This document shows, in pieces, positions 29,853-55,150 of a stretch of 64,000 bases of DNA. The notes beneath the pieces are model-generated. The model was not told the origin of the DNA. It did not search any database and saw nothing but the letters and a program-made list of their open reading frames with translations. Within the stretch, counting starts at the first letter, position 1. Each line of letters opens with the position of its first letter. The DNA is from a virus, in the IMG/VR virus record IMGVR_UViG_3300022602_000033; one strand, 5' to 3'. Made by a program: the position numbers and the translations under genes.

Positions 29853-35231
<5,379 letters not shown>

Positions 35232-38700: not shown

Positions 38701-39888
38701 TACCAGTATGGGATTGGGCTCTAGATAGTCGCCTGCACGCACATATATGGTGGCATAGATCCAAGGTGTGCTGGGATTGGCTATGAGCTGAGCAGCTGCG
38801 CTGCAAGCGCTGGCAATGGTGCGCTTGGCACGATCTTCGCTGAGACCTGTGTTGGCATCATCACCGTCCACTGTGACATACATCACGCCTGTGACATGTG
38901 GAGCAGTCCTATAGGCTATGCCGCCCACATAGAGATCGTTGCTGACATAGACGCCGCCGTCCACAGGAGTCTGCAGCGTGAGGTTAGCAGTTGCCAGCCT
39001 ATTGCGTATGACATCGTTGACTATCTGCGTGTTCTGGCTGGTGATGGCATTGACGTTGAGCACGTTGTCTGTGCCCCAGGTAAACAAGCTGCTGCCACCA
39101 AACACGTTGCCGCCAGCATTGAACTGCACCGAACGCACGGGCGGAGCAGGTATACCTATGCCAGTTGGACCAGTTACGCCAGTGGGACCCGTGATGCCTG
39201 TGGGACCAGTTGGTCCTGTTGGCCCAGTATAGCCTGTGGGACCTGTGGGACCTGTCTCGCCAGTGGGTCCTGTGGGGCCTGTTTCACCGGTGGGTCCTGT
39301 GGGACCTGTGGTCACAGATGTGGGACCAGTGGGGCCTGTGATCGTGGAAGTGGGACCAGTTGGTCCAGGTATGCCAGGGAATCCCTGCTGTCCGGGCACG
39401 CCCATCAAACCTACTGGACCAGTGGCACCTGTGGGACCATTGGCTGGGCCTGTGGGACCAGTTATGGTGCTTGCAGCACCAGTGGGACCTGTTGGGCCCA
39501 CTGGATACCAGTTGGTGCTGTTGAAATACTCTATGGTGTTGGTATCTGTGTTATAGCGTATCTGCCCTATGACTGGATTGGGTCGCTGGCTGCTGTCACC
39601 TACTGGCAGCACCACAGCGCTGGTACCAGGAAAGGTGAGCTGATAGTTTTGATCGCTGGTCTGGAACTGGGTTACTAGTGTAACACTGCCTGTGGCGAGA
39701 TTGCCCGGCAATGGCGTGTAAACTGGACCTGTGATACCTATCGTGCTAGCTTGTAGCCCGCTGATGGCCACATTTGCAGCGATGAAATTCTGCTGGATGG
39801 CAGCGAAATTGTCCCTGAAGCCTTGGCTGTCATTGTCCTGATTGGCTACGGGAAACTGTGCATTAATGGTGTTGGGGTCTATGGCCAT
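35713..39888 (-). CDS. Virion protein with short collagen tract and beta-helix (pectin-lyase-like) region
   Basis: [18 protein letters not shown]-terminus, GPT tract, [17 protein letters not shown] / [10 protein letters not shown] / GDNLRSV / SPYVQNCSS / GYAQLVSIF motifs, RD.GY..DA helical repeats. Confidence 0.8.
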
Positions 39889-40003: not shown

Positions 40004-40765
40004 TTGGCTAAACGTGCGCGTCGCTCTGCGTATCGAGCGAACAATGAGAATAACTTCTACAAGCACACAGAAACACAGCATGGAAACGTGGTAAGGATAG
40101 AACAGTTCCATCGAAGTCCCCAACAGCGGCAGCGAATTAGGCTGCTGCCCAAGAACCTAGCCCAGGAAGCTTACATAGAAGCACTGGAAGATCCCTCAAT
40201 CAACATGGTATTCGCACTAGGCTACGCTGGCTCCGGCAAGACGTATATTGCCACGGTGCATGCCATACAGCAGCTGCAGTCTCGTGCAGTGAGCAAGGTG
40301 GTTATAACCAGACCTAACATAGCTGTTGATGACAAGGACATAGGTTTCTTACCGGGCGACATAGTTAAAAAGATGGGCCCATGGATCAAACCAGTGTTGG
40401 ATGTGTTCGAAGAATACTACAGCATGAAAGAGATCGCTCACATGATAGAGGAGGGTACCATAGAGCTGGTACCGGTGGCCTATCTGCGTGGACGGACCTT
40501 CAAGAACGCTGTGGTGATACTGGACGAAGCACAGAACACCACCCGCAACAGCATGCTTAGCGCACTCACACGCATAGGTGAGGGCACCAAGATGATCATA
40601 ACCGGCGACGTACGCCAGAGTGATCGTGGCAAGGATAATGGCTTAACTGACTTTATCGCTCGCTTTGACGGCACTCCCAGCATAGCAGTCTGCCATTTTG
40701 ACAAGGACAGCGTGGAACGCCATCCTGTGATCACTGACATATTGCGCATGTACGGCGAAGAATAA
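40004..40765 (+). CDS. phoH: PhoH-family ATPase
   Basis: Walker A GYAGSGKT, ITRP, GFLPG, YLRGRTF, ILDEAQN, TRIG, GD..QSD, RHP motifs. Confidence 0.95.
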   Translation: MAKRARRSAYRANNENNFYKHTETQHGNVVRIEQFHRSPQQRQRIRLLPKNLAQEAYIEALEDPSINMVFALGYAGSGKTYIATVHAIQQLQSRAVSKVVITRPNIAVDDKDIGFLPGDIVKKMGPWIKPVLDVFEEYYSMKEIAHMIEEGTIELVPVAYLRGRTFKNAVVILDEAQNTTRNSMLSALTRIGEGTKMIITGDVRQSDRGKDNGLTDFIARFDGTPSIAVCHFDKDSVERHPVITDILRMYGEE

Positions 40766-41311: not shown

Positions 41312-42126
41312 GCAAGCTCACAGAAGGTCTAACTCGCCATGCGCTGGAACATCTGGTCATGCCCATGGTCACCATTGACGAGTTTGAGAGCAAGATTGAC
41401 GATCGCCGAGTGGTGGTCACTGGTTTCTATGTGACTGATCAGGATCCTGCAGTGGATCTCAGCATATTCATAGAAAAAAGCAGCATACGCCCGCTGGACA
41501 CCGAAGTCAGCCCTGCTCCCACAGATGATGGCTACTATCTGGTGTTTGTGGAGATGACGCGCAACGAAGAGTTTCCCACCAGAGTGGTACAGATGTGCGA
41601 GCAGGTCAGCAACCTAACCAACACCAAGAAATGGCAGTTCCATCCCTACGGTGAACCCGAAGGCGAGTTCCATGATCTCACAGAGGACAACATACGCAGA
41701 TATGTGAACCTCGATCCAAGCAAGGTCGAAGTCACAGACGAACCAGACACAGAAAAGCCTGGTCCGCAAGCACAAGTAAGCGAGCCAGCACCAAAAGCTC
41801 AAGGCGAACCAGCCACAGTTGCCGAACCCACAGCAGAAAGCATCGGAGCATTCTTTGCCAACAGCTTGGTAGAGAACGTGGAAGTGCGAGGCAAATGGCT
41901 GCGCATCACCAACGCTGGACAGCAGCGAATATATAAGATCAACGATTATCGCAGCGGGGCTTATGCTGCCATGCCAGTGTTTGGATTGGACATTGGCAAT
42001 CCAGTGCTGCGTGAAAGCATCGCGCTGCAGAGGTTGCTGGGTTCTGAGTATTATGTGGACTGCGCCGACGATCATGTGACCATTTCGGACGGCGATAACC
42101 ACCTGATCTTAGCGGTTGACGCCTAA
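41308..42126 (+). CDS. Conserved hypothetical phage protein
   Basis: 272 aa with IDEFESKI, DPAVDLS.FIEK and G.YLVFVEM.R motifs. Confidence 0.8.
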   Translation: MSKLTEGLTRHALEHLVMPMVTIDEFESKIDDRRVVVTGFYVTDQDPAVDLSIFIEKSSIRPLDTEVSPAPTDDGYYLVFVEMTRNEEFPTRVVQMCEQVSNLTNTKKWQFHPYGEPEGEFHDLTEDNIRRYVNLDPSKVEVTDEPDTEKPGPQAQVSEPAPKAQGEPATVAEPTAESIGAFFANSLVENVEVRGKWLRITNAGQQRIYKINDYRSGAYAAMPVFGLDIGNPVLRESIALQRLLGSEYYVDCADDHVTISDGDNHLILAVDA

Positions 42127-42143
42127 TCAAAACCTGCTATACT
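42116..42143 (+). promoter_or_regulatory. Sigma70-like promoter TTGACG-N16-TATACT with extended -10 (TGC)
   Basis: Immediately upstream of the PRTase RBS AGGGA. Confidence 0.65.
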
Positions 42144-42166
42144 GGCATGATAACAGGGACATGCCA

Positions 42167-42709
42167 ATGACAAATAAACGCTATCTCAGCTACGCAGACG
42201 TAAATTCACAAGTATTATCAATAGCTCAGCAGATAACCACAGATGGCTGGAAGCCAGATTATGTGGTTGGACTTACTCGTGGTGGTTTGCTGCCTGCCGT
42301 GTTGCTAAGTCATTGGTTTAATGTGCCTTGTCACACACTTAAGGTCAGTTTACGCGACGATGGCGCAGAAAACGAAAGCAACTGGTGGATGAGCGAAGAC
42401 GCTTTTGGGTATGATGAGCAGTTCCCTACCGAAGGCAACCCGCCCAAAAAGATTCTAATCGTAGACGACATCAACGATACTGGCGCAACTTTGGAATGGA
42501 TCAAAAGTGATTGGCGCAGCACTTGCTTGCCTGATAATCCAAACTGGGATCACGTGTGGCACAACAACGTGCGTTTCGCTGTGCTGGTAAACAATCTTGC
42601 CAGCGAGACCAAGGTTGATTATGCAGCCATGGAGATCAACAAGGCTGAGAATGATCAATGGTTGGAGTTCCCCTATGAAAATTGGTGGGTTACTGCCACA
42701 TCACAATGA
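42167..42709 (+). CDS. Type I phosphoribosyltransferase (xanthine/guanine PRT-like); start corrected to ATG 42167
   Basis: PDYVVGLTRGGL.PA, PRPP-binding ILIVDDINDTGATL, terminal W.EFPYE. Confidence 0.85.
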   Translation: MTNKRYLSYADVNSQVLSIAQQITTDGWKPDYVVGLTRGGLLPAVLLSHWFNVPCHTLKVSLRDDGAENESNWWMSEDAFGYDEQFPTEGNPPKKILIVDDINDTGATLEWIKSDWRSTCLPDNPNWDHVWHNNVRFAVLVNNLASETKVDYAAMEINKAENDQWLEFPYENWWVTATSQ

Positions 42710-43280: not shown

Positions 43281-44345
43281 TCAGCTGCGCAGATTCTTGG
43301 CGATGAAATCTTCGATCAATTCCATGTTGTTCTGCAGGCGTTTATCGTTTGGTAACTTGTCCAGTGCCAGCTTGGCCTGTGCCAGAGATTCATCATAGAG
43401 CTTGAGGTTCCAAGCTGCGATGCTGAGCAGATCATGTGGTTGCCATCCCCAGGCTTCAGGTGTGCAAGTGTAATCCATGGGATGCTTGGTTACCTTGAGA
43501 GCACGATGCGCGTAGTCATAGCAGTTCTTCCAATCAGCAGCTTCGTAGTAGTGTTGTGCCAATGCTACCAGAGGTTCACGATGAGTTGGCACTTCATAGG
43601 CAGCTTGCTTGAGCCAGAACAGCTTGTTCTCGGGTTCAGCTTGTGCCAGCGTGGTCAGTGCTTGGCAACGCTCCACGGTGTCGTAGCTCATGCCAAGGAA
43701 TTCCTTGTAGGTGGCAGCACACTTGTCCCAGATCTTTTGGTAAGCATATTCGCGACCAAGATAGGCTTTGATGCGTGAATCATGCGGCCATTCTCTCACG
43801 CTTTCTTCCAACAGCGATAGGTCGCCGCTCTTGCTCTTGGGATCTGGAAAGTGATGTATCTGAAAATCGTCAGTGAAAGTGTGAACTTCAGGTAATCGGC
43901 TGACCAGTCCTTCGTGTGTGGCTCCCATCCAGCGATAGCCCTTGCGACTGTGTATGCGATCACCATACCATTGGCGGCCCGGAGTGCCATCTGCGTTCCA
44001 GTTCCAGATGTATGGATAGCGCAGCCTCGTGGTCTCTGGCTTCCAAGCTGCTTCTAACTTGTCGCGCCAACCAGGTGTCAATCTCTCGTCTGTGTCCAGG
44101 CGTATGCACACATCTATGTCGTCTGGTACCAGGTACATGGCAGTGTTGAACGCATCGTCAAAGCGCCAGGGTACGATACGAACATCTGTGACTTGTACTC
44201 CAAGCTCCAACATCTTTTCCTTGGTGCCATCAGTGCTACCAGTGTCAGCCACGCATATGATGTCGGCATCACAGCAGCTATCATACCAGGGTTGCACGTG
44301 GTGAATTTGGTTCTTGGTTGGTCCGTAAATTGCTATGCGCATCAT
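43281..44345 (-). CDS. GT2 glycosyltransferase with C-terminal TPR repeats (start ATG 44345)
   Basis: ADTGSTDGT, PWRFDDAFN, RLDTDE (DxD), W.GATHE, helical TPR tail. ATGA overlap with the upstream paralog. Confidence 0.85.
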   Translation of the reverse strand: MMRIAIYGPTKNQIHHVQPWYDSCCDADIICVADTGSTDGTKEKMLELGVQVTDVRIVPWRFDDAFNTAMYLVPDDIDVCIRLDTDERLTPGWRDKLEAAWKPETTRLRYPYIWNWNADGTPGRQWYGDRIHSRKGYRWMGATHEGLVSRLPEVHTFTDDFQIHHFPDPKSKSGDLSLLEESVREWPHDSRIKAYLGREYAYQKIWDKCAATYKEFLGMSYDTVERCQALTTLAQAEPENKLFWLKQAAYEVPTHREPLVALAQHYYEAADWKNCYDYAHRALKVTKHPMDYTCTPEAWGWQPHDLLSIAAWNLKLYDESLAQAKLALDKLPNDKRLQNNMELIEDFIAKNLRS

Positions 44346-45412
44346 GCTTGTTCCTTGATCTTGCCCTGCATCCACTGCAGATTGGTCTTTAATCTATCGT
44401 CAGTTGGTGCCATATCAACTGCCTGTTGGCACCATAATGCTGCCTTGGTATACCAGCCTAGGTTAGCAGCAGCTATGCTGCCAAAGTCCAGCAGCTGATT
44501 ACCCCAAGCATCTGCGTTGTCCAGATAGCTGTGGTCTCGCCTGCTCTTGTCCATGCCGCTGCCTGCAGCCCACAGCAATCCGTGCCAATCTTGGCAATTA
44601 TAATAGTACCGTGCTAGCTCTAACCAGACTTGCCTGCGCTCCGGGCTGCATATCAGTGCCCGCTGTATGTATTCAAGCTTGCGGCTATCGCTCATCCTGC
44701 TGATGTAGATCATGGCTTCTGAACGCTCTATCGGCCATCTGCTGGTCTCTAGATCCAGATAACGATTGAGTTCAGCCACAGCCTCTGCATGCTTGTTGGC
44801 ATACATCAGCTCTCGACCATACCAGAAGCTGAGCTGGCTGTCTGTGGGATCTTCTGTGGTAGCTATGGCCATCAGAGGCAGATAATTGCCGCGTGTGGGC
44901 TTGCTGCGATCCTGTATCTGGTTCAGCATTATGCTGAGATCTTCGGCTATGTTCTCGTAACCCAGCGTGCTGAACACAGTCTCATGCACAGGACGTCGCC
45001 ATTGGTAACCAATCCTTGCATGTATCTTGTCCATGCGATAACCATCATTGGGTCCGCCATCTCTGTAATCAAACACATAGGTGTAGGCCAAACGTGTGGT
45101 CTCGTTCATACGCCACGCTGCTTCCATCTTGGCTCGCCAACCTGCGGCGAGAAACTCGTCCATGTCTTGGCTGATGCAGATGTCAGTGTCGCTGGGCAAG
45201 CAGGCTAGTGCAGCATTGCGAGCATGATCAAAGCGCCACGGATCAAAACGCTGTTCGAACACTGTGACACCCAGCTCTCTGAGCTTCTCAACAGTGCCGT
45301 CAGTGCTGCCAGTGTCCAGCACCACGCGATAATCTGCATCTGAGACGCTGTTGGCCCAGCGCTCGCAGTGCTTGATCTCGTTTAATGCCACCGTATAAAC
45401 GCCTATCTTCAT
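44342..45412 (-). CDS. GT2 glycosyltransferase with C-terminal TPR repeats
   Basis: ALNE, LDTGSTDGT, PWRFDHARNAAL, QDMDE, WRRPVHE, FWYGREL plus TPRs. Confidence 0.9.
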   Translation of the reverse strand: MKIGVYTVALNEIKHCERWANSVSDADYRVVLDTGSTDGTVEKLRELGVTVFEQRFDPWRFDHARNAALACLPSDTDICISQDMDEFLAAGWRAKMEAAWRMNETTRLAYTYVFDYRDGGPNDGYRMDKIHARIGYQWRRPVHETVFSTLGYENIAEDLSIMLNQIQDRSKPTRGNYLPLMAIATTEDPTDSQLSFWYGRELMYANKHAEAVAELNRYLDLETSRWPIERSEAMIYISRMSDSRKLEYIQRALICSPERRQVWLELARYYYNCQDWHGLLWAAGSGMDKSRRDHSYLDNADAWGNQLLDFGSIAAANLGWYTKAALWCQQAVDMAPTDDRLKTNLQWMQGKIKEQA

Positions 45413-45413
45413 A

Positions 45414-46073
45414 TCAGTCCCTTACCATGCGATAGCGCATGCCCTTTTGTAATTTAACTGGAATCTGCTTGGTCATCATATTTGTTGTGAGGAATAATTC
45501 GCTGCAGAAGTCTACGCCATCCACGCTATAAAGCCAAGGTATCCTCGAGAACGTCTCGCCATAGTCTCGCATCACGTGCATGCTGCCATAGCCAAACTGA
45601 TCGTTGTGTGCCACGTACCATGTGCCGCGATGCTGGAAGTTATGGCCGCTGAGTCCCGGATCGTCTGGCACAGTCAGTCCATCAAACGGTTCCAGCACAA
45701 ACTGATCGCAGTGCCAGTCAAAGCGGGCACGAGCCACATAGTCATAGGTCAGGCGATTGTGCCAAGCATGCCGGTCTGCTAGCTGAAGGCTCTGACCTAT
45801 GCTGTACCACATGCTGAGCACGTTGCGCGGTTCAGACCTATAGGCCCAGATCCTGTCCTTGTACATGCTGGTATCAAAGTCTCGCTGAGATTCAATGATC
45901 ATTGCTCTGGGAGCATACGCACTGCTGATCCAGTTGCGAGACAGCTCTTGCTGATCTGACCACGCATGCACGAACACGTCGGTGTCATGCTGATCTATCA
46001 ATCGACGCCAGCTCTCAGTGCTGACTTCAGTGATGCGAGGTAGGCCCGCAAAGCACAGTGCTAGCCTTGCCAT
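45414..46073 (-). CDS. Putative glycosyltransferase-like protein (start ATG 46073)
   Basis: MARLALCFAGLPR...DVFVHAW...SMWYS...YDYVARARFD...NDQFGYG...SE, a pattern seen in uncharacterised polysaccharide-locus transferases. Confidence 0.6.
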   Translation of the reverse strand: MARLALCFAGLPRITEVSTESWRRLIDQHDTDVFVHAWSDQQELSRNWISSAYAPRAMIIESQRDFDTSMYKDRIWAYRSEPRNVLSMWYSIGQSLQLADRHAWHNRLTYDYVARARFDWHCDQFVLEPFDGLTVPDDPGLSGHNFQHRGTWYVAHNDQFGYGSMHVMRDYGETFSRIPWLYSVDGVDFCSELFLTTNMMTKQIPVKLQKGMRYRMVRD

Positions 46074-46534
46074 GCCCGCAGCCGGTTCACATAATCGCTG
46101 CAGAAACCGTACCAATGCCAGCTGCGTACCATGTCTTCAATCTCCGGCCATTCATAGGTAGCTTCTGGCATCACGCACACGCTCATGGGACTCACGGTCT
46201 CTGGCTTGCCAAAATAGGTCCACACAATGTTGGTGCTGGTTAATGTAATGAGATCGCTCTCATGCCAGAAGAAGTTGTAGTGATGTTTCTGGCTGCGCAG
46301 TGCAAACAGTGCATCAAGATTCTTGCAGTGTATCCACAATCCTTTTTGTTGTAGGTAATCAAACGCTATCTCATGTTCTGGACCATCATGCCCCAGCACC
46401 CACTTGTTGTCTATGCGCCATAGATCAATCTCTGCTTCGAACCCGTGATCCAGGGCTTTGACGATCTGAGCAGGATCGTTCTGCATCTTTGTGTCTGGAC
46501 CGTCCATCAACCCTCGATGTGCTATGAATCTCAT
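46061..46534 (-). CDS. Minimal GDPD/PI-PLC-like phosphodiesterase
   Basis: IAHRG, EAEIDLW, LGHD, WIHCKN, G.CSDY motifs in 157 aa. Confidence 0.75.
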   Translation of the reverse strand: MRFIAHRGLMDGPDTKMQNDPAQIVKALDHGFEAEIDLWRIDNKWVLGHDGPEHEIAFDYLQQKGLWIHCKNLDALFALRSQKHHYNFFWHESDLITLTSTNIVWTYFGKPETVSPMSVCVMPEATYEWPEIEDMVRSWHWYGFCSDYVNRLRAWQG

Positions 46535-46535
46535 G

Positions 46536-47678
46536 TCACACCTTTAGGTTATCTATGGCATTGCGTATCTTGCGAGCACCAGCCAGCGTGCCTTCTGCAT
46601 GCCCATGTATGGCACCGCCCACGTTGGCCATCCAATCCACACCAAACTTGTCCACGATTGGTGGGATCAGTTCTGCTGTCATGCCACAGCTCAGCGCAGG
46701 AACCACGTTGCCCTTGTGCAGGACATCCATGTATGCTGTGATCTCGGCTTCTGGATCTGACAGATAACCACCCCACATGCCAGCATGTATGGTGTCCACA
46801 CCGCTCATGGCTGCCAACTGACACAGCACAGTCCACTCTATGCCAAAGGGATTCTTCTTGCCAGTGATGACCTTGTCGCCGCTCTTCTGATAGTGTATGA
46901 ACAGCGGGAGGTCAAGATTGCGTATGGTGCGATAGCTACCAAGCCCGCTCCACACGTTGATGTGCACGCCGTTGCCGCCGTTCTGGCTCACGAATCTTGC
47001 ACGGTTTTCAATGTGAGCAGGATCGCTGTTGATGCAGAAGCAATACACAACTCTCTTGTCCTGTAGGTAATTGCTGATCAGCTCAACTCGATCTTCCAGT
47101 CGGCATATGGCAGGATTGCTGAGTATCTCGTCTTCCTTGATGAAGTTAACACCGCCTTCTACCAGCTGCTTGGTCATGTCCAGCAGCGTCTGTGGTGTGA
47201 TGCCAGTCTTGGGCTTGACGATGCCACCGAAGAATGGCTTGCCAAAGTTGCCCGTGTATTCGCGCATGCCAGTGATGCCGTATTTGGGCTTGCGGAAGTG
47301 AGTGTCAATGGTCTGTGGGTGTATCTCCAGACCAACCACTCTGCACTTCTTGATGCTATCTATGTCTGTCTGCCCGCCCTGTATCATGCACAGCAGATGT
47401 GCTATGCCATCACCGTCCCAGTCTATGTTGGCGCTGGGATAGCCTATGGTAACCAAGCCCTTTTTCTTTTCGAAATCCTTGCTGCGGATGATCTTGGCAC
47501 AGTAGGCTTCGATCATCTCGTCTGTTTCCCAGACTGAGCGCTTGGTGGGATTGCCTATGCTCTGCCCCACTGCGATGTTCCAACCTGCGTCGTAGACGCT
47601 AACCGTGCTCTCGACTTCATAGGTAACGTAGAAATACGTGCCCAGTTCTTTTTCATCTCTGACAATATCTATGCTCAT
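46536..47678 (-). CDS. RuBisCO-like protein (form IV RLP)
   Basis: GGIVKPKTG (K155/K157), GGVNFIKEDEIL (K181,D183,E184), TIHAG, PALSCG, NVGGAIHGH..G..AGA. Lacks the equivalents of K334, H294, N123 and E60. Confidence 0.92.
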   Translation of the reverse strand: MSIDIVRDEKELGTYFYVTYEVESTVSVYDAGWNIAVGQSIGNPTKRSVWETDEMIEAYCAKIIRSKDFEKKKGLVTIGYPSANIDWDGDGIAHLLCMIQGGQTDIDSIKKCRVVGLEIHPQTIDTHFRKPKYGITGMREYTGNFGKPFFGGIVKPKTGITPQTLLDMTKQLVEGGVNFIKEDEILSNPAICRLEDRVELISNYLQDKRVVYCFCINSDPAHIENRARFVSQNGGNGVHINVWSGLGSYRTIRNLDLPLFIHYQKSGDKVITGKKNPFGIEWTVLCQLAAMSGVDTIHAGMWGGYLSDPEAEITAYMDVLHKGNVVPALSCGMTAELIPPIVDKFGVDWMANVGGAIHGHAEGTLAGARKIRNAIDNLKV

Positions 47679-47998
47679 TGTATCTCCACCTTGTCTCCTG
47701 GCACGCTGGGTGCTTTGATTACGAATACCTTGCAGTCTGTGACAAATTCTGGATCAGCTATCTCACCACGCTCCAGCAGGAATATCACCGGTCCTGTCAG
47801 TGTCTGTCCCTGCATCTGCATGGTGCCTTCCAGCAGGAACGTGATCTCGTCCATGTGTTCATGGTAGTGTGCAGCCCATGGTTCACCTGCCACATGATGC
47901 TTGTAGCCCACTTCATAGGCCTCTGTGCGCCAGATGCTGGGTTCAAAATCGCCTATGAACCAACCACCCTGATAATCTTTGGGATCAAACAGCTTCAC
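47675..47998 (-). CDS. Cupin-fold protein (putative sugar isomerase/epimerase); GTG start 47998, 107 aa
   Basis: GWFIGDFEPS...HYHEHMDEITFLLEG...G.I. GTGA overlap with the upstream stop and ATGA overlap with the RLP start. Confidence 0.75.
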   Translation of the reverse strand: MKLFDPKDYQGGWFIGDFEPSIWRTEAYEVGYKHHVAGEPWAAHYHEHMDEITFLLEGTMQMQGQTLTGPVIFLLERGEIADPEFVTDCKVFVIKAPSVPGDKVEIQ

Positions 47999-48708
47999 TT
48001 GTGTGCCTCGATGTATATGTCTAGGTCCTCTGGCATGCCTATGGGCCAGTGCTCCTGCGGTGGGTAGATGCCAATGCGATCGCCTCTGGCAATGTTCCAA
48101 TTATACACTGGACAAACATAGAACTCTCCATTTACACGTACATCATCTGCGATCATCTGCTCAGCTGCCCACACAAAATCCTCACCTCGAGTCCACACAT
48201 AGATGCCAGTGGTAGCATGCGGGCTGATAACCTGTTTCTCTGCGGTGCGCATGGCCAATCCGCGATCATCAACTTCTACATAGCTGTAGGCAGTGGTGTC
48301 CTTGAAGAACGTGAGCATGGCACCGTCCAGTCGCTCAGCAACTAACCACTCTTCAAAGTGATCTTGGTCCCAGACCATCATCTGGTCGCAGTTGGCTATG
48401 AACAGCGTTTCCTTGGGTTTGATGTACTGGCGGGCCAACAGGCAGGTCTCTGCTGCTCCTTGCGTTACCTGATCCACGAACACGAGGTTGAGATCAGCTG
48501 CCATGCCTCTGAGCTGGGCGAACAGCGCAGGATCAGCATCATAGTGCTCGCGCAGCACGCACAGCGTGAACGTGTTGTGCAGGCCCAGATTCTCCAGCAC
48601 ATGCTGTACCATGGGCTTGCCAAAGAATTCTATCAGTGGTTTTGGTTTAGCGTAACCCTGTTGGGCGAACCGTGAACCTCGCCCGCTCATGGGTATGAGT
48701 ATGTGCAT
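47995..48708 (-). CDS. Sugar nucleotidyltransferase, BcbE-like GT-A fold
   Basis: IPMSGRGSRF..GY..PKPLI, TQGAAETCL, IANCDQ, AEKQVIS.HAT.GIY, RVNGEFYVCPVYN, IG.PEDL. Confidence 0.85.
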   Translation of the reverse strand: MHILIPMSGRGSRFAQQGYAKPKPLIEFFGKPMVQHVLENLGLHNTFTLCVLREHYDADPALFAQLRGMAADLNLVFVDQVTQGAAETCLLARQYIKPKETLFIANCDQMMVWDQDHFEEWLVAERLDGAMLTFFKDTTAYSYVEVDDRGLAMRTAEKQVISPHATTGIYVWTRGEDFVWAAEQMIADDVRVNGEFYVCPVYNWNIARGDRIGIYPPQEHWPIGMPEDLDIYIEAHK

Positions 48709-48767: not shown

Positions 48768-49484
48768 TCACGGTTTGGTAGCAGCGAATAGCTTGCCGAT
48801 CTCCACAGCAGTGTCCTTGACGCTGTGCTCAGCCAAGACCAGATCGCTGATGTCAGCATTGTAATCCACACCCACGAATCCAAAAAGATCACCATTGGTC
48901 ATGTAGATCGGACAGCGGATCAGATGCTTGGCTCCGCGGCTCATCCAGAAGTAATAATCTTGGTTTTCTCTGTCCTTGTCGCTGTTCTTGATCACGGCAC
49001 ATCTATCGTTGACAAATTGGTTGTTGATGGCCACGTGTATGCTGGCAGGTATGCGCTGCTCAAAGGTCATGATCCTGGGTGTACCCGGGCTGATCACTTC
49101 ATGCGTCATGGTCTGGAAGAAGAACGGTACGCCGCTGATCGCAGCCAATCCGTTGTGATAGCGATACACGTAGGCTCTCATTCCGTTGGTATCTGACAGC
49201 AATCTGTTGAGATTGCGGTAGATGCTGTTGTCATTCTCCACAGACGTCTTGAGATTCATGCTGAAGCTGGTGATGCTGTGAGCTTCCTCGTAGATGCTGA
49301 CCAAACTGGTAAAATGGAAAGCTATCACGTAGGCTGTGGCAAAGATAGCAGTGATAGCAGCTGTGTATATAAGATGCACAGCCAGCATCAGCGGGCGAGT
49401 GCGAGTTAAATAATCAACTGCTATCTGTGCCAGCGTTGCTTGTTTCTGTTCGTCCAACGGAAAATCCCTTGATTTCAACGCCAA
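48768..49484 (-). CDS. Holin-like membrane protein (one TM helix plus GAF-like domain, T4 gpT-like architecture); TTG start
   Basis: Hydrophobic segment LMLAVHLIYTAAITAIFATAYVIAF, then RAYVYRYHNG...THEV...CPI...GFVGVDY. Late promoter upstream. Confidence 0.55.
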   Translation of the reverse strand: MALKSRDFPLDEQKQATLAQIAVDYLTRTRPLMLAVHLIYTAAITAIFATAYVIAFHFTSLVSIYEEAHSITSFSMNLKTSVENDNSIYRNLNRLLSDTNGMRAYVYRYHNGLAAISGVPFFFQTMTHEVISPGTPRIMTFEQRIPASIHVAINNQFVNDRCAVIKNSDKDRENQDYYFWMSRGAKHLIRCPIYMTNGDLFGFVGVDYNADISDLVLAEHSVKDTAVEIGKLFAATKP

Positions 49485-49549: not shown

Positions 49550-50428
49550 ATGGAAGACTATTACAAGATACTAGAGCTGAGCGAGTCAGCATCACCGGAC
49601 GAGATCAAGGCCGCCTATCGCAAGCTGGCCAAACAGCATCATCCGGATCTCAACAAGGGCAACGCCAACAGCGAAGCGCTGTTCAAGAAGATCAACGAAG
49701 CCAACGACACGCTGGGCGATCCACAGAAACGTGCGCAGTATGATCAGCAGCGCAAGTTTGGACAGGGCGGACCAGGTGGCAACCCATTTCAGGGATTCCC
49801 TGGACAGGAGTTCCATTTCAACTTTGGTGGGCAACCATTTGAAGAGATGTTTAACCAGTTCTTTGGCGGCGGCCATCCGTTTGCCAGGCATCAAGCTCGA
49901 AACAGGGACTACCAATTCAACATCAACATCAGTTTGGAAGATGCTTTTGCTGGCAAGAGCGTGCCAGTGAGCTTTGATGCCAACAGCAACCAAACCAGCA
50001 TCACAGTGAACATACCAGCTGGCATGGAGAACGGCGCACGCATGCGCTATCAAGGCCAAGGCGAACGCAACGTGCCTAACGCACCCCCAGGCGACCTTTA
50101 CATCACGGTGATGATCAACGAACACAGCGTGTTCCAACGCCATGCGCAGCATCTACATACCAACATGAAAGTGGATGCGATCGGAGCCATGCTGGGCCTG
50201 CAGCAAGATCTACAGACCATAGACGGCAGCATGATAAATGTCAGCGTGCCCTCTGGCACTCAGCATGGCGCTACTCTGCGAGTGCAGGGGCACGGGATGC
50301 CAGTGCAGCACAACAGCAGGCACCGAGGTGATCTTTACATACACATAGAGCTGTCAACTCCCATCAACCTAACTGAAAGCCAGCGTGACATGCTGCTAGA
50401 GATACAACGCCAGAGGAGCGCCAAATGA
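49550..50428 (+). CDS. dnaJ: Class B J-domain co-chaperone (DnaJ/CbpA-like, no zinc finger)
   Basis: DYYKIL, AYRKLAKQHHPDLN, G/F-rich linker, GDLY C-terminal domains. Confidence 0.93.
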   Translation: MEDYYKILELSESASPDEIKAAYRKLAKQHHPDLNKGNANSEALFKKINEANDTLGDPQKRAQYDQQRKFGQGGPGGNPFQGFPGQEFHFNFGGQPFEEMFNQFFGGGHPFARHQARNRDYQFNINISLEDAFAGKSVPVSFDANSNQTSITVNIPAGMENGARMRYQGQGERNVPNAPPGDLYITVMINEHSVFQRHAQHLHTNMKVDAIGAMLGLQQDLQTIDGSMINVSVPSGTQHGATLRVQGHGMPVQHNSRHRGDLYIHIELSTPINLTESQRDMLLEIQRQRSAK

Positions 50429-50934
50429 TACTGCCCATAGTCACACGCCCAGATCCAGTGCTCAAGCAGACTGCCAGGCTGATAGAACCCCAAGAGATTC
50501 CAGGTCTGGCAACGTTGATCGCAGACATGTTCGACACCATAGCAGCCCACGGCGGCGTGGGATTGGCAGCACCACAGGTCGGACACAGCATCAACCTATT
50601 TGTGGTGCGAGTGGATGGCAACGATCACGTGTTCATCAATCCCGTGGTGCTCAATGCCAGCGATGACATGGATGAGATGCCAGAAGGCTGCCTCAGCCTG
50701 CCAGGACTCACGCTCAAGGTCAAGCGCAGCAAGCAGATCAAGGTCATGTTCAGAGATCGCGAAGGTAACCAGCAGATCACTGACATGGGCGAAGGATGGA
50801 GCAGGATCTTCCTGCATGAGTTTGATCATCTACAGGGCGTGATGATTGACGACAGAGTGGGCCGAGTCACCCTGGACTTGGCCAAGCGCAAGGCAGCCAA
50901 GAAGCAAAAGCGTCAGCAGAGGGTCACAGCATGA
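50425..50934 (+). CDS. def: Peptide deformylase
   Basis: GVGLAAPQVG, EGCLS, HEFDHLQG motifs. Confidence 0.95.
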   Translation: MILPIVTRPDPVLKQTARLIEPQEIPGLATLIADMFDTIAAHGGVGLAAPQVGHSINLFVVRVDGNDHVFINPVVLNASDDMDEMPEGCLSLPGLTLKVKRSKQIKVMFRDREGNQQITDMGEGWSRIFLHEFDHLQGVMIDDRVGRVTLDLAKRKAAKKQKRQQRVTA

Positions 50935-53219
50935 GCATGAACAGCTTCGAACAACCATTACAGCGTGCCTATCAGCTGGCCAGCAGCCTCAATCACGAGC
51001 TGGTCACGCTGGAACATCTGCTGGCAGGACTGCTGGAAATGGAACCCATACAGGAACTGATCACCAGAGGCGGTGGCGATCTCAATAGCCTGGTTAGGGC
51101 AACCAGCGATTGGCTGGGCACAGATGCCAATCACGTGATCGTCAAGGCTGGCAGCTATCAGCCGCGCCACACCAGCTTGCTCAGCAACGTGATCAAGAAG
51201 GCCAAGACACAGAGCATGTTCAGCGGGCGCAACGACATTGGACCGGTGGACATACTGCTGGCACTGTATCACATACCAGATAGCCCTGCCAGTTGGTTCT
51301 TGGAGAAGTTTGCACCGAGCAAGGAACGCATAGCTGAGCTAATCAGCAAAGGCGATGTTTCAGCAGACATGGCCATGGACAGCAAAACCGCGTTAGAAAT
51401 ACTCAGTGCCTACTGCATCGATCTCAATGCCAAGGCACAGGCAGGACGCATAGATCCACTGATTGGTCGTGAAAAGGAAGTGGAGCAGATCACGCAGATC
51501 ATTGCTCGCCGCAACAAGCACAACGTGATCATGACTGGCGATCCTGGCGTGGGCAAGACCATCATCGTGGAAGGATTGGCTCGCCGCATCGTGGAAGGTG
51601 CAGTGCCAGACAGCTTGGCAGATCACACCATCTGGAATCTGGATGTGGCAACGTTGGTGGCTGGCACCAAGTTCAGAGGTGATTTCGAAGAGCGACTGAA
51701 ACAGATCATCGCAGCGTTCACAGCACTGCCCAGGACCATCATGTTCATCGACGAGATACACATGATCATGGGCGCAGGCAATGGTGGCGGTGGCGGTAGC
51801 ATTGATGCTGCTAACATGCTGAAACCAGCTCTGAGCCGAGGCGATATCTGCTGCATCGGCAGCACCACGCAGGAAGAATATCGCAAGCATTTTGAGAAAG
51901 ATCGCGCATTGGTGCGTCGATTCCAAAAGCTGGACATCTTTGAGCCCAGCGCAGAAGACAGCAAACGCATATTACAGGGCATTGCCAAGCATTACGAGGA
52001 ATATCACGGACTGGAGTTTGATGTCTCAGCATTGGATGCAGCAGTTGATCTCACTGCTAGGCACATACATGACAAGTGCTTGCCAGACAAAGCCATTGAT
52101 ATCATAGACAGTGCTGCAGCCTGGCAGAGGATCAAGCCAGAAGCAGAACGTGCCAAGACCATCACCAGAGACCTGATCGAAGCAGAAGTCAGCAGAGTAG
52201 CCAAGGTTCCGGTGACCACAGTGAAGAGCAAGGAAGCTGACAAGCTGAGCCAACTTGAGACAGATCTCAACACCAAGATCTTTGGACAGACAGATGCTAT
52301 CGATGGCGTGGTCAATGCCATCTACATGAGCCGCAGCGGCCTGCGTGAGAGCGATAAGACAGTGGGCAGCTTCCTGTTCTCAGGACCCAGCGGCGTGGGC
52401 AAGACCGAAGTGGCCAAGCAGTTAGCACGCAGCTTAGGCGTGCATTTTGCTAGATTTGACATGAGCGAGTACCAAGAACGTCACACCGTGAGCAAGTTCA
52501 TCGGATCACCTCCGGGCTACGTGGGTTACGGCGACGGTGGCGCAGGCGGTGGCGTGCTGATCAACGAGCTGGACACTCACCCACACTGTGTGCTGCTGTT
52601 TGACGAGATCGAGAAGGCACATCCAGACGTTTACAACATCTTCCTGGCTCTGATGGATCATGGCACAGTGACCAGCAGCCAAGGCAAATCAGCCAGCGCA
52701 CGCAATGCCATCGTGATCTTCACCAGCAATCTGGGCGCAGCTGACATGGAAAAGGAGCTGATTGGTTTCACCAAGAGCACAGTGCGCGACGAAGACACAC
52801 AGGCCATCAACCGGTTCTTCACGCCAGAGTTCCGCAACAGGCTGGATGCAATCATCAAGTTCAACAAGCTGAACAAGGATAACATGGACAGCATAGTTGA
52901 CAAGTTCCTCAGCGAGCTCAATGCGTTAAGCAACAGCAAGAACGTGAACATCGTGTGCGATCCTGCTGCCAAGCAGTGGCTGATTGACAAGGGATTTGAC
53001 ACAAACATGGGTGCACGACCACTGGCCAGAGTGATCACAGACCACATCAAGAAACCACTGAGCCGCGAGATGCTGTTTGGCAAGCTGCGCCACGGTGGTG
53101 CAGTGATGGTCACTGCCAAGGACGGCAAGCTGGAGTTTGAATATCTCAGCAACCCAGAACCCATGGCTGACGACACGCTGCTGTTACCCAGCCCCACAAC
53201 TGAGGATGTCACACAATGA
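50931..53219 (+). CDS. clpA: ClpA-type AAA+ unfoldase
   Basis: Clp N domain (EHLL), GDPGVGKT and GPSGVGKT Walker A motifs, FIDEIH, DEIEKAHPD, IGF ClpP-docking loop, GARPL. No middle domain. Confidence 0.93.
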   Translation: MSMNSFEQPLQRAYQLASSLNHELVTLEHLLAGLLEMEPIQELITRGGGDLNSLVRATSDWLGTDANHVIVKAGSYQPRHTSLLSNVIKKAKTQSMFSGRNDIGPVDILLALYHIPDSPASWFLEKFAPSKERIAELISKGDVSADMAMDSKTALEILSAYCIDLNAKAQAGRIDPLIGREKEVEQITQIIARRNKHNVIMTGDPGVGKTIIVEGLARRIVEGAVPDSLADHTIWNLDVATLVAGTKFRGDFEERLKQIIAAFTALPRTIMFIDEIHMIMGAGNGGGGGSIDAANMLKPALSRGDICCIGSTTQEEYRKHFEKDRALVRRFQKLDIFEPSAEDSKRILQGIAKHYEEYHGLEFDVSALDAAVDLTARHIHDKCLPDKAIDIIDSAAAWQRIKPEAERAKTITRDLIEAEVSRVAKVPVTTVKSKEADKLSQLETDLNTKIFGQTDAIDGVVNAIYMSRSGLRESDKTVGSFLFSGPSGVGKTEVAKQLARSLGVHFARFDMSEYQERHTVSKFIGSPPGYVGYGDGGAGGGVLINELDTHPHCVLLFDEIEKAHPDVYNIFLALMDHGTVTSSQGKSASARNAIVIFTSNLGAADMEKELIGFTKSTVRDEDTQAINRFFTPEFRNRLDAIIKFNKLNKDNMDSIVDKFLSELNALSNSKNVNIVCDPAAKQWLIDKGFDTNMGARPLARVITDHIKKPLSREMLFGKLRHGGAVMVTAKDGKLEFEYLSNPEPMADDTLLLPSPTTEDVTQ

Positions 53220-53815: not shown

Positions 53816-55150
53816 ATGATCAGCGTCACACTACTAGGTACCACATACGATCAGATCAACGTCGTTGGACAGAAGGTCCAAGGCGCTGGTTACAACAACA
53901 CGGTTGGTAATAACCATACTGTGAGCATCAATCTGGACAACTTCATAGGCCGCATCTACATTCAAGGAAGCTTGGCCACAGATCCCAAAACAGACAGCGA
54001 TTGGTTCAACATACCCATAGGTAACGGCACAGCATACGTACAGTTCCCGCTTGATCCAGCCCTGCCCACAGGTTATAATCCTGCGCTCAACCAATGGCCG
54101 GCTAATCAATATCCCAATACACAGCAGGGTGATACAGGCATATTTGCCTACAGCTTCAGCGGCAACTACATATGGCTCCGAGCAGTGGTAGACAGGACCT
54201 ATTTGGTACCGCCGCCTACTGATCCTTACTTTGTTGGAGCGGTCAGCCAGATACTGTTGAACTTTGGCGCTGTGGCCGGTAGCAGCACGCTGCCACAAGC
54301 AACCAACACAGGAGGTGCTCAAGGCCCTCCTGGACCTCCGGGTCCCACGGGTCCTAACAGCACTGGTCCCACAGGCGTGGCCGGACCAACTGGTCCTGCA
54401 GCTAGTGGTGCTTTCCAGCGCTATGACAGCTATGCTAGCCCAGGTCAGACAGTTTTCTATGCCACATATGTTCCCAATTATGTGGACGTTTACTACAATG
54501 GACTGCTGCTGGTACCAGTGAATGATTACACTGCCACAGACGGTTCCACAGTGGTATTGACCAGCTCAGCCCTGGGTGGTGACCCGGTAAGCATCGTGGC
54601 CTGGGAGATAGCAAACATCAGTCAGCTCACAGGTCCTACTGGTCCAAGCGGTGGTCCCATAGGTCCCACAGGTGTGACGGGTCACACAGGAGTAACCGGT
54701 CCAACCGGTCCCACCAGCACAGTGCTGGGTCCAACAGGATCAACTGGTTACACTGGTCCCACTGGATCAACTGGTGCTACAGGAGCAGCAGCCACCAACT
54801 TGATCAGCTTCAGGCTGCTGTTTAACAGTGGTATAATATTGCCTACCAACTACGTGGACAGCTGTGTAAACATTGATCCATCACGGATAACCAGGGCCAG
54901 CGACACTCAGATCACTGTGTTACACAACATGAATGCCTATCCGGGCATGACCACTTGCCAAGGCGGTCCTCTGGCTCAACCAGCAGGTGCATACAGGCAG
55001 ACCGTACCAAATGCTGCTACCAGCGGTAGCTACAGCGCTCTCAGCTTGGATATCAACACTACCAGCTTATTCGCTCTAACGCCGGGTAACACAGGCATAC
55101 CAGCCAGCGGCAACGGATATCTCTGGGTTTCCATGATATTCTCTGGTTGA
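53816..55150 (+). CDS. Virion protein with Gly-X-Thr collagen tracts
   Basis: [15 protein letters not shown]...F.GNY.W.RA N-domain, GPT tracts, [15 protein letters not shown] module. Confidence 0.8.

What the first reader, a model, noticed from the sequence alone, without database searches (positions are those of the whole stretch)
45414..48708. Phage RuBisCO-like protein embedded in a sugar-activation operon: candidate new biosynthetic pathway
Seen: five genes joined by overlaps or a 1-nt gap: BcbE-like nucleotidyltransferase, cupin, RLP, minimal GDPD-like phosphodiesterase and a putative transferase. They run straight into two GT2-TPR genes. Established: characterised form IV RLPs enolise ketose-phosphate-type substrates in methionine salvage, sulfur metabolism or branched-sugar (apiose/hamamelose) catabolism. 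No methionine-salvage genes are present in this window. Inference: this RLP acts anabolically, isomerising, epimerising or rearranging a pentulose/hexulose phosphate into an unusual (possibly branched) sugar. That sugar would then be nucleotide-activated and transferred. I am not aware of a described biosynthetic glycan role for an RLP in a phage.
Basis: partly seen in the sequence, partly recalled or inferred. Interest (0 to 1): 0.92.

Follow-up and report, generated by a model that had tools for sequence, protein, structure and literature searches.

The report
Phage RuBisCO-like enzyme in sugar-activation operon
A huge freshwater phage carries a RuBisCO relative that cannot fix CO2 and that, in phages, bacteria and archaea alike, sits beside (sometimes fused to) a sugar-activating enzyme in surface-sugar gene clusters, so it probably helps make an unusual activated sugar, a role not yet shown for this enzyme family.

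Summary
On the minus strand, seven genes are joined by overlaps or 1-nt gaps: a nucleotidyltransferase (NT), a 107-aa metal cupin, a RuBisCO-like protein (RLP), a 157-aa stripped GDPD-fold phosphodiesterase, a DUF7796 protein and two GT2-TPR paralogues. I show here that the DUF7796 protein has a GT-A/GT6-like glycosyltransferase fold.

The RLP keeps the Lys/carbamate-metal core and the P1 phosphate site. It has lost E60, N123, H294 and K334. It falls in a well-supported clade apart from MtnW, OiaX and forms I-III. A Beckwithbacteria sequence lies in this clade, so it matches the phage 'form IV-like' clade of Jaffe et al. 2019, who gave it no function.

Among loci with at least 3 kb on both sides, an NT lies within 3 kb of the RLP in 61/61 viral and 25/26 cellular loci. 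This holds across at least 12 gene orders. Natural RLP-NT and GDPD-RLP fusions exist. Neighbouring genes are glycan genes.

The RLP most likely supplies or reshapes the sugar phosphate that the NT activates. The chemistry is untested.

This scan reached the same reading before on other phage DNA. New here are the two fold assignments and a wider phage NT + GDPD-like module, often with a beta-phosphoglucomutase-like HAD domain, that mostly lacks the RLP.

The parts
47995..48708 (-). Sugar-phosphate nucleotidyltransferase (237 aa), 4EVW-type
   Evidence: PF00483 at 35.1 bits (cut-off 21.2), phrog_3980 at E 5e-57. Best solved relative is 4EVW at E 1e-16, followed by RmlA. It is 35% identical to the NT half of the natural RLP-NT fusion P0122.
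47675..47998 (-). Small metal-binding cupin (107 aa), start GTG 47998
   Evidence: GTGA overlap with the NT stop. Alignment A3 has invariant H44, H46, E51 and G58. phrog_24762 at E 4e-22. The profile matches generic metal cupins in the PDB. It lies within 3 kb of the RLP in 56/61 well-flanked viral loci.
46536..47678 (-). RuBisCO-like protein (380 aa), phage/cellular 'form IV-like' clade
   Evidence: PF00016 at 129 bits. All NCBIfam equivalog models score far below cut-off. Residue mapping against 2CWX. Family invariants from alignment A1. The clade is monophyletic with SH-aLRT 99.
46061..46534 (-). Stripped GDPD-fold phosphodiesterase-like protein (157 aa)
   Evidence: Invariant H6, R7, E35, D37 and H49. 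The profile matches GDPD structures 3I10 and 7E0V at E about 1e-4. AF2 pLDDT is 94.5, and the Foldseek top hits are all GDPDs with TMq 0.52-0.62. It is fused to the RLP N-domain in P0174/L010.
45414..46073 (-). DUF7796 protein (about 219 aa), predicted GT-A glycosyltransferase
   Evidence: PF25072 at 34.3 bits. AF2 pLDDT is 94.2. Foldseek matches GT6 enzymes (BoGT6a 4AYL at E 1.6e-7; human GTA/GTB) with prob 1.0 and TM 0.5-0.57. Cyanophage homologues are annotated 'capsular polysaccharide biosynthesis protein'.
44342..45412 (-). GT2-like + TPR-like glycosyltransferase, paralogue A (356 aa)
   Evidence: phrog_13126 at E 1e-84. PF00535 at 21.3 bits, just under the cut-off. Weak TPR hits and a weak SunS-family hit. 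Homologues occur in jumbo phages PaBG and Lu11 and in Erwinia phages.
43281..44375 (-). GT2-like + TPR-like glycosyltransferase, paralogue B (about 353-364 aa; start uncertain)
   Evidence: phrog_13126 at E 4e-86. PF00535 at 20.6 bits, under the cut-off. It is conserved after paralogue A in close relatives.
48768..49484 (-). Conserved 238-aa unknown directly upstream (possibly part of the unit in huge-phage relatives only)
   Evidence: No Pfam or NCBIfam hit. It is present upstream of the NT in 13 related loci. A weak GAF hit is recorded for the homologue in L005.

Best explanation
The seven-gene minus-strand operon is a phage module that makes and uses one unusual nucleotide-activated sugar or sugar-like phosphate ester.

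Proposed steps:
1. The RLP uses its retained Lys/carbamate-Mg2+ enolisation machinery and P1 phosphate site to isomerise, epimerise or rearrange a host ketose (bis)phosphate.
2. The small metal cupin, translationally coupled to the RLP, carries out a neighbouring isomerisation or trimming step.
3. The 4EVW-type nucleotidyltransferase couples the resulting phosphate ester to an NMP.
4. The GT-A (DUF7796) enzyme transfers the product, and the two GT2-TPR enzymes extend or attach the glycan. The target may be the phage's own Thr-rich collagen-like fibres.
5. The GDPD-fold protein is a general partner of this NT family and handles a phosphodiester or phosphate step that remains unidentified.

Shown by computation: gene structure, family and fold assignments, active-site retention and loss, conserved linkage, natural fusions, and the glycan context.

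Inferred: the direction (RLP before NT), the substrate, the chemistry, and the glycan's target.
For: - Tight coupling of the genes.
- The RLP keeps K175, K177, K201, D203, E204, H327, S379, G381, G403 and G404. These, plus new positions Q39, R197, H239, N241, Q264 and Y305, are invariant or nearly so across 25 sequences down to 31% identity. This argues for an active enzyme with its own conserved chemistry.
- An NT lies within 3 kb of the RLP in 61/61 viral and 25/26 cellular loci with at least 3 kb on both sides, in at least 12 different gene orders.
- Natural fusions: RLP-NT (P0122) and GDPD-like-RLP (P0174/L010).
- Neighbours in other loci are GDP-mannose 4,6-dehydratase, FkbM and other methyltransferases, and GT2/GT25, GT4 and GT11 enzymes.
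- DUF7796 has a GT-A/GT6 fold.
- The family also occurs in SAR11, Verrucomicrobia, Azospirillum, Nonomuraea, CPR and DPANN genomes, again next to an NT.
- The window has no 4,6-dehydratase, kinase, HAD, GmhA or aldolase, so the operon looks self-contained.
- Precedent for an RLP plus adjacent cupin acting in sequence: the MTA-isoprenoid shunt (PMC5893883).
Against: - No biochemical data exist for any member of the clade.
- The order of RLP and NT is not fixed by synteny or by the fusions.
- The operon has no obvious mutase or anomeric kinase to make a glycosyl-1-phosphate. Either the NT substrate is not a classical sugar-1-phosphate, or a host enzyme or an unrecognised activity is needed.
- The NT + GDPD-like pair is widespread without the RLP: only 2 of 35 well-flanked p157-centred loci have one. 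The RLP is therefore an optional add-on, not the core of the module.
- GT2 and TPR assignments rest on sub-threshold Pfam hits.
- The fibre-glycosylation target is only suggested by proximity.
Confidence: 0.62

Rival explanations
1. The NT acts first, and the RLP works on the nucleotide-linked sugar. For example, it could enolise an NDP-4-keto-6-deoxy sugar to epimerise or keto-isomerise it, with the cupin as a second such enzyme. The P1 site would hold the beta-phosphate.
For: - GDP-mannose 4,6-dehydratase and related SDRs lie within 6 kb in 28 of 89 loci, and GT11 fucosyltransferase-like genes in 10.
- Residues that close over RuBP (E60, T65, W66, K334) are replaced. This could open the site to a bulkier ligand.
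- Fusions do not fix the reaction order.
Against: - The dehydratase is absent from most loci and from this whole 64-kb window.
- No RuBisCO-family enzyme is known to act on a nucleotide sugar (my knowledge).
- Minimal cellular loci hold only the RLP and an NT.
Confidence: 0.17
2. The module decorates phage DNA rather than a glycan. The activated sugar would be a donor for base hypermodification.
For: - Phages are known to encode NTs and sugar-phosphate isomerases for DNA glycosylation (my knowledge).
- First-reader notes place a 7-deazaguanine cluster with a glycosyltransferase just beyond the window end (untested).
Against: - The same cassette sits in cellular genomes (SAR11, Verrucomicrobia, Azospirillum, Nonomuraea, DPANN) among polysaccharide-type genes.
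- Its partners are GT-A/GT6-like, GT2-TPR, GT4, GT11, GT25 and FkbM genes.
Confidence: 0.06
3. The RLP has a catabolic or salvage role during infection, for example recycling 5-deoxy- or methylthio-pentose phosphates or splitting a sugar acid. It would be only loosely linked to the glycan genes.
For:
- An RLP-cupin pair exists in the MTA-isoprenoid shunt.
Against: - No mtnA, mtnK, mtnP, mtnB-type or four-carbon acid kinase genes were found in the window ORFs scanned or in the loci.
- Model scores are far below the MtnW and OiaX cut-offs, and the clades are separate.
- The near-obligate NT linkage and the RLP-NT fusion are hard to explain by salvage.
Confidence: 0.08
4. The RLP is catalytically dead and acts as a scaffold or regulator for the NT.
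For: Several RuBisCO catalytic residues are lost.
Against: - The metal and carbamate triad, K175, K177, H327 and the P1 glycines stay invariant or nearly so down to 31% identity.
- Clade-specific invariant polar residues are also present. This pattern is typical of an active site under selection.
Confidence: 0.03

Closest known systems
Phage and Beckwithbacteria 'form IV-like' RuBisCO-related clade (Jaffe, Castelle, Dupont & Banfield 2019, PMC6389311)
   Same: RuBisCO large-subunit fold. Encoded by large phages from many environments. Only partial conservation of catalytic residues. Groups with Beckwithbacteria sequences and apart from other RLPs. My tree places a Beckwithbacteria MAG sequence (L102) inside the window's clade.
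   Different: That paper's main text left the function open and mentions no nucleotidyltransferase, glycosyl or neighbouring genes. Here the clade is tied to an NT, cupin, GDPD-like protein and glycosyltransferases. It is also found in SAR11, Verrucomicrobia, Azospirillum, Nonomuraea and DPANN genomes.
DeepYkr RLP (5-methylthioribulose-1-P 1,3-isomerase) plus adjacent cupin (1-methylthioxylulose-5-P methylsulfurylase) of the MTA-isoprenoid shunt, Rhodospirillum rubrum and Rhodopseudomonas palustris (PMC5893883)
   Same: An RLP and a small cupin are encoded side by side and act in sequence on a ketose phosphate. The product (DXP) feeds biosynthesis.
   Different: No mtnP or mtnA context here. 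The partner is a sugar-phosphate NT in glycan loci. Homology of the two cupins could not be tested because no reference sequence was on hand, and the PDB profile search returned only generic cupins.
MtnW / YkrW 2,3-diketo-5-methylthiopentyl-1-phosphate enolase (Bacillus, Geobacillus)
   Same: Shares the fold and the K175, K201, D203, E204 core. Does enolisation without carboxylation.
   Different: Scores are 93.5 and 118.9 bits against cut-offs of 513.6 and 409. It lies in a separate clade with SH-aLRT 99. The N123 position is Gly. No methionine-salvage neighbours were found.
OiaX/OiaT-type RLPs of D-apiose catabolism and other RLPs next to four-carbon acid sugar kinases
   Same: RLPs that act on phosphorylated sugar derivatives. 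These are the nearest labelled RLP group in plasmid records, at 25-29% identity.
   Different: The score is 127.9 bits against a cut-off of 700. The clade is distinct (support 100). The kinase neighbour seen in those loci is absent here.
Glycan (so-called LPS) islands of cyanomyoviruses S-SM2, Bellamy, SynMITS9220M01 and S-CAM9
   Same: They hold the same NT family (26-45% identity), the same GDPD-like protein (29-43%), the same cupin (32-33%, found only in SynMITS9220M01 and Bellamy) and DUF7796-family proteins, all among glycosyltransferases.
   Different: They have no RLP. In its place they carry HddA-like kinase, KdsC/GmhB-like or beta-phosphoglucomutase-like HAD, GmhA and class II aldolase genes, which is a heptose-type route. 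No GenBank phage record encodes this RLP.

Membership tests
RuBisCO large-subunit superfamily (PF00016 / PF02788) | Significant match to both Pfam domains above the gathering score | tested here: met
   PF00016 at 129.3 bits (cut-off 30.1). PF02788 at 24.5 bits (cut-off 20.7).
Bona fide RuBisCO (forms I-III) | Complete carboxylation residue set (E60, N123, K175, K177, K201, D203, E204, H294, K334) and a score above the form-specific model cut-off | tested here: not met
   Substitutions E60Q, T65N, W66P, N123G, H294Q, R295K, H298D and K334Y, read from the alignment to 2CWX. rubisco_III scores 166 bits against a cut-off of 497. The protein lies outside the form I, II and III clades.
MtnW DK-MTP-1-P enolase | Score above the TIGR03332 or NF007095 cut-off, and membership of the MtnW clade | tested here: not met
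   93.5 bits against 513.6, and 118.9 against 409. The MtnW clade, anchored by P0211 which passes both models, is separate with SH-aLRT 99.
MtnW DK-MTP-1-P enolase | Methionine-salvage gene context (mtnA, mtnK, mtnB, mtnX, mtnD) | tested here: not met
   None was found among the window ORFs scanned or by searching the window and loci with cyanophage aldolase, kinase and HAD queries. Not every small ORF of the window was scanned.
OiaX-type 3-oxo-isoapionate-4-P decarboxylase RLPs | Score above the NF042437 cut-off, clade membership, and an adjacent four-carbon acid sugar kinase | tested here: not met
   127.9 bits against 700. The clade is separate (support 100). There is no such kinase in the operon.
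Phage/Beckwithbacteria form IV-like RLP clade (Jaffe et al. 2019) | Phage-encoded, groups with Beckwithbacteria sequences, distinct from other RLP clades | tested here: met
   The window is a huge phage. The clade of 23 (or 67) rows includes the Beckwithbacteria MAG L102 and excludes all labelled RLPs. This is indirect, because Jaffe's own sequences were not on hand.
DeepYkr RLP + cupin pair (MTA-isoprenoid shunt) | Membership of the DeepYkr clade, and homology of the cupin to MTXu-5-P methylsulfurylase | not testable with these tools
   No labelled DeepYkr or RPA2170/Rru_A2000 sequence could be fetched. Only RLP-cupin adjacency is shared.
Glycerophosphodiester phosphodiesterase (GDPD) fold, 157-aa protein | HR...E.D...HD catalytic and metal motifs, and a GDPD-type barrel | tested here: met
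   Invariant H6, R7, E35, D37 and H49. Profile against PDB GDPDs gives E 8e-5. Foldseek top hits are all GDPDs with prob 1.0.
Glycerophosphodiester phosphodiesterase (GDPD) fold, 157-aa protein | Full-length (about 220-250 aa) barrel and a Pfam GDPD match | tested here: not met
   The protein has 157 aa. There is no Pfam hit at E 0.01. TM scores normalised by target length are only 0.35-0.43.
Sugar-1-phosphate nucleotidyltransferase (PF00483) | Pfam match above the gathering score and an N-terminal G-x-G-x-R motif | tested here: met
   35.1 bits against 21.2. The sequence MSGRGSRF is visible. The best structure is 4EVW at E 1e-16. Substrate was not tested. All NCBIfam equivalogs score far below cut-off.
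GT-A glycosyltransferase (DUF7796 protein) | GT-A Rossmann-like fold resembling solved nucleotide-sugar transferases | tested here: met
   The AF2 model has pLDDT 94.2. Foldseek gives E 1.6e-7 to 1e-5 and prob 1.0 to GT6 enzymes.
GT-A glycosyltransferase (DUF7796 protein) | Recognisable DXD or equivalent donor-binding motif | tested here: inconclusive
   Invariant D111, R117, D119 and D158 exist, but they were not mapped onto the GT6 active site.
GT2 family (two downstream paralogues) | PF00535 above the gathering score | tested here: inconclusive
   21.3 and 20.6 bits against a cut-off of 23.3. Both match phrog_13126 'beta-1,4-glycosyltransferase' strongly, at E 1e-84 to 1e-86.

The most novel reading that the evidence does not exclude
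The RLP makes a glycosyl-1-phosphate directly from a ketose-1-(bis)phosphate such as fructose-1,6-, sedoheptulose-1,7- or ribulose-1,5-bisphosphate. This would be the reverse of the MtnA / ribose-1,5-bisphosphate-isomerase type of aldose-1-P to ketose-1-P isomerisation. The NT could then form a nucleotide sugar without any mutase or anomeric kinase. That would be a new reaction class for the RuBisCO superfamily and a new entry route into nucleotide-sugar biosynthesis.
Probability: 0.1. Interest if true: 0.9.

Novelty: new variant of a known kind. Interest (0 to 1): 0.7.

Why it matters
All characterised RuBisCO-like proteins work in sulfur or methionine salvage or in sugar-acid catabolism. A clade whose genomic wiring points to nucleotide-sugar and glycan biosynthesis would add a new functional branch to one of the best-studied enzyme superfamilies. 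It may also reveal an unknown sugar, or an unknown route to a known one.

The cassette is common. At least 381 IMG/VR contigs carry it, along with SAR11, one of the most abundant bacteria in the ocean. The glycan it builds may therefore affect phage-host recognition at ecosystem scale.

The question is directly testable. Cultured carriers exist (Azospirillum oleiclasticum, Nonomuraea rosea), and the enzymes are small and soluble-looking.

For this phage, the operon sits between Thr-rich collagen-like fibre genes. That raises the possibility of a self-glycosylated virion surface.

Tried and rejected
- Complex prediction on the RLP dimer plus cupin gave no verdict (score 0.00). It says nothing either way.
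- The look-up of sequencing runs listed no RNA holder, so expression was not assessed and read laying was not run. DNA holders with at least half of the words come from freshwater and lake metagenomes of three studies.
- No whole genome is held for the window.
- DNA search of GenBank phages found no match, and tblastn of the RLP against 50,697 phage records found none.
- An apparent RLP-NT 'fusion' in Azospirillum was an artefact of my ORF picking in high-GC DNA. The ORF listing shows separate, overlapping p157, RLP and NT genes.
- The idea that the RLP replaces the beta-phosphoglucomutase-like HAD domain: raw counts are striking (HAD fused in 8/108 RLP-adjacent NTs against 37/64 NTs without an RLP, Fisher p 5e-13). 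On the NT tree, however, only 5 independent contrasts exist and the sign test has no power. I keep it as a lead only.
- The idea that the RLP replaces isomerase plus kinase: the HddA-like kinase is rare even in RLP-free loci (1/35), so this was rejected as a general rule.
- The full p157 alignment was too diverse for a collection scan. A 10-row subset worked.
- Contexts of the sister RLP clade (P0176, P0182) lie on contigs of 1.5-2.5 kb and were uninformative.
- The cupin profile did not pick out a specific characterised cupin.
- Literature searches for an RLP-nucleotidyltransferase-polysaccharide link found nothing. Subscription-only papers were not searched.

Full report
**What is in the window.** The window is part of a very large phage. 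It encodes tail-fibre and virion proteins, giant ORFs of 3813, 2099, 1782 and 1391 aa, and collagen-like fibres. It also encodes a ClpB-like ATPase, peptide deformylase and DnaJ. Its closest relatives lie on metagenomic contigs of 485-518 kb with the same gene order around the locus. Near-identical DNA occurs in freshwater and lake metagenomes from three studies. No GenBank phage matches it at the DNA level.

**The operon.** The finding's five genes are all real, and all lie on the minus strand.
- The NT is at 47995-48708.
- The cupin starts at GTG 47998, in a GTGA overlap with the NT stop. It does not start at the TTG 48100 given by the mechanical ORF list.
- The RLP ATG overlaps the cupin stop.
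- The 157-aa gene starts 1 nt after the RLP stop.
- The DUF7796 gene overlaps the 157-aa gene.
- Two paralogous GT2-like/TPR-like genes follow, with a 1-nt gap and then an overlap.

This layout indicates one translationally coupled unit.

**What the RLP is.** It matches both RuBisCO large-chain Pfam domains. It scores far below every NCBIfam equivalog:

| Model | Score (bits) | Cut-off (bits) |
|---|---|---|
| rubisco_III | 166 | 497 |
| MtnW (TIGR03332) | 93.5 | 513.6 |
| MtnW (NF007095) | 118.9 | 409 |
| OiaX | 127.9 | 700 |

Alignment to Pyrococcus RuBisCO 2CWX shows which residues are kept and which are replaced.
- Kept: K175, K177, the carbamylated K201, the metal ligands D203 and E204, H327, S379, and the P1-phosphate glycines G381, G403 and G404.
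- Replaced: E60Q, T65N, W66P, N123G, H294Q, R295K, H298D and K334Y.

Across 25 family members down to 31% identity, the retained residues stay invariant or nearly so (H327 and G404 are conserved in at least 90% of rows). So do clade-specific residues Q39, R197, H239, N241, Q264 and Y305. This is the pattern of an active enzyme with its own conserved chemistry, not a decaying copy.

**Phylogeny.** A FastTree of 159 rows and an IQ-TREE of 56 rows both place the window's protein in one clade (SH-like 100, SH-aLRT 99). All phage and cellular relatives fall in the same clade. It is separate from the following groups:
- the MtnW clade, anchored by P0211, which passes both MtnW models;
- the OiaX and four-carbon-kinase RLPs;
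- form I, form II and form III, the last anchored by P0212.

A Beckwithbacteria MAG sequence lies inside the clade. This matches the phage/Beckwithbacteria 'form IV-like' group that Jaffe et al. reported in 2019 with no function assigned. The existence of phage RLPs is therefore already known.

**Linkage to the nucleotidyltransferase.** The RLP family is common: 381 IMG/VR contigs and 44 species-representative genomes encode relatives. I re-scored all loci in six frames and kept only those with at least 3 kb on both sides.

| Neighbour within 3 kb | Viral loci (n=61) | Cellular loci (n=26) |
|---|---|---|
| NT | 61 | 25 |
| Cupin | 56 | 10 |
| 157-aa protein | 46 | 15 |

At least 12 different gene orders occur, so the association has survived repeated rearrangement. 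Examples are NT-cupin-RLP-p157, p157-RLP-NT, RLP-NT, RLP-NT-cupin, and NT on the opposite strand.

Two natural fusions add Rosetta-stone evidence.
- P0122 is RLP + NT. Its NT half is 35% identical to the window's NT.
- P0174/L010 is the 157-aa protein fused to the RLP N-domain.

Both fusions lie on short contigs, and in L010 the RLP is split after its N-domain. They support the linkage but are not decisive alone.

Cellular carriers include a complete Ca. Pelagibacter chromosome, many SAR11 single-cell genomes and a Verrucomicrobia chromosome. They also include the cultured Azospirillum oleiclasticum and Nonomuraea rosea, and several CPR and DPANN MAGs. Some MAG contigs may be phage contamination.

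**The other parts.**
- The NT is a PF00483 enzyme. Its best solved relative is the uncharacterised Vibrio protein 4EVW, followed by RmlA.
- The cupin has the classical HxH...E...G metal motif and matches only generic metal cupins.
- The 157-aa protein keeps the GDPD catalytic set (H6, R7, E35, D37, H49). It matches GDPD structures by profile and has a confident model whose best fold matches are all GDPDs. It is about 70 residues shorter than a normal GDPD.
- The DUF7796 protein gives a confident model with a GT-A fold closest to GT6 transferases.
- The two downstream paralogues match a phage 'beta-1,4-glycosyltransferase' family strongly and GT2, TPR and SunS models weakly. Homologues occur in jumbo phages.

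In other RLP loci the frequent neighbours are GDP-mannose 4,6-dehydratase and related SDRs, FkbM and other methyltransferases, and GT2/GT25, GT4 and GT11 enzymes. The context is consistently glycan biosynthesis.

**A wider module.** Sampling IMG/VR by the 157-aa protein instead of the RLP gave at least 588 contigs. In 35 well-flanked loci the NT was always present, but the RLP was present in only 2. A HAD domain, usually fused to the NT, was present in 27 of the 33 loci without an RLP. That HAD is beta-phosphoglucomutase-like, so it is plausibly the mutase that feeds the NT.

Cultured cyanomyoviruses (S-SM2, Bellamy, SynMITS9220M01, S-CAM9) carry the same NT, 157-aa and DUF7796 families, and two of them also the cupin. 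They pair these with heptose-type enzymes and have no RLP.

The NT + GDPD-like pair is therefore the general unit, and RLP + cupin is one of several alternative or additional upstream modules. The raw negative association between RLP and HAD is strong. It cannot be separated from shared ancestry, because only five independent contrasts exist. Eight RLP-adjacent NTs do carry the HAD domain.

This window holds no dehydratase, kinase, HAD, GmhA or aldolase gene.

**How it most likely works.** The step I hold with most confidence is that the RLP and NT act on the same small molecule in a glycan pathway. This rests on the linkage, the fusions and the context.

The most economical chemistry uses the retained carbamate-metal enolisation apparatus and one phosphate site. 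The RLP would isomerise, epimerise or rearrange a ketose (bis)phosphate, and the NT would then activate the product. The cupin would take an adjacent step. This is what happens with the adjacent RLP and cupin of the MTA-isoprenoid shunt, where the RLP performs a 1,3-isomerisation and the cupin processes its product to DXP.

The GT-A enzyme would transfer the new unit. The GT2-TPR pair may attach or extend it.

Four neighbouring virion proteins carry collagen repeats. One of them (29853-35201) has 275 G-X-T triplets (lead from earlier notes). A glycosylated fibre is a reasonable but untested target.

The role of the GDPD-like protein is unknown. Because it travels with the NT whether or not an RLP is present, it probably acts at or after the activation step.

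The alternatives are action on an NDP-keto sugar, DNA modification, salvage, and a dead scaffold. They are listed with their evidence among the rival explanations.

**Novelty and standing.** The protein clade is known. Its wiring into nucleotide-sugar biosynthesis is not described in any paper I could search, though subscription journals were not covered.

Earlier follow-ups in this scan reached the same reading on at least three other phage genomes. My analysis was done independently before I saw them, and it agrees.

- the confident fold assignments for the 157-aa and DUF7796 proteins;
- the demonstration that NT + GDPD-like is a broader phage module to which the RLP is optional;
- the huge-phage version with GT2-TPR genes among collagen-like fibre genes;
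- named cultured bacteria in which the hypothesis can be tested.

Noticed in passing
window 29853-35201 (-), 35713-39888 (-), 53816-55150 (+), 55164-57368 (+): Collagen-like virion or fibre proteins flank the operon. The 1782-aa one has 275 G-X-T triplets and a 171-aa uninterrupted G-X-Y run. They are possible acceptors for the GT2-TPR enzymes.
   Followed up: partly
P0238 (from; Pfam): A distant RLP (25% identity to the window's) is fused to an N-terminal TIR domain. The architecture is TIR_2 + RuBisCO_large_N + RuBisCO_large, 583 aa. A TIR-RLP fusion hints at a defence or signalling role for another RLP lineage.
   Followed up: no
P0163, P0164: Natural fusions of an IF-2B family domain (the ribose-1,5-bisphosphate isomerase type) to a form III-like RuBisCO. 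The two AMP-pathway steps sit in one polypeptide.
   Followed up: no
L153-L232 (IMG/VR): A module of beta-phosphoglucomutase-like HAD fused to an NT, plus the stripped GDPD-fold protein, occurs in at least 588 viral contigs. It mostly lacks an RLP, and its product is unknown.
   Followed up: partly
L128:8000-15000 (Nonomuraea rosea JCM 17326): Here the RLP-NT pair sits beside an AdoHcy-hydrolase-like NAD-binding protein, a deoxynucleoside-kinase-like protein and a phage-type integrase. In an actinomycete this could be a nucleoside-type natural-product island rather than a glycan locus.
   Followed up: no
L007:7120-7857 and L008:144-881: A NUMOD3 homing-endonuclease-like gene is inserted on the opposite strand between the cupin and the RLP in a 76%-identical relative. 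It interrupts the otherwise coupled genes.
   Followed up: no
window 49550-53219 (+): A DnaJ, peptide deformylase and ClpB-like AAA+ (762 aa) block is divergently transcribed from the sugar operon. It is conserved in the same position in the 485-493 kb and 56 kb relatives examined (L003, L005, L007).
   Followed up: partly
window 42116-42709 (+) and 40004-40765 (+): A phosphoribosyltransferase-domain protein and PhoH lie just downstream of the GT2-TPR genes. A Pribosyltran gene also lies near the cassette in L005.
   Followed up: no
window 18361-29802 (-): A single 3813-aa ORF without collagen repeats lies next to a virion structural protein (phrog_5838). It was not examined.
   Followed up: no
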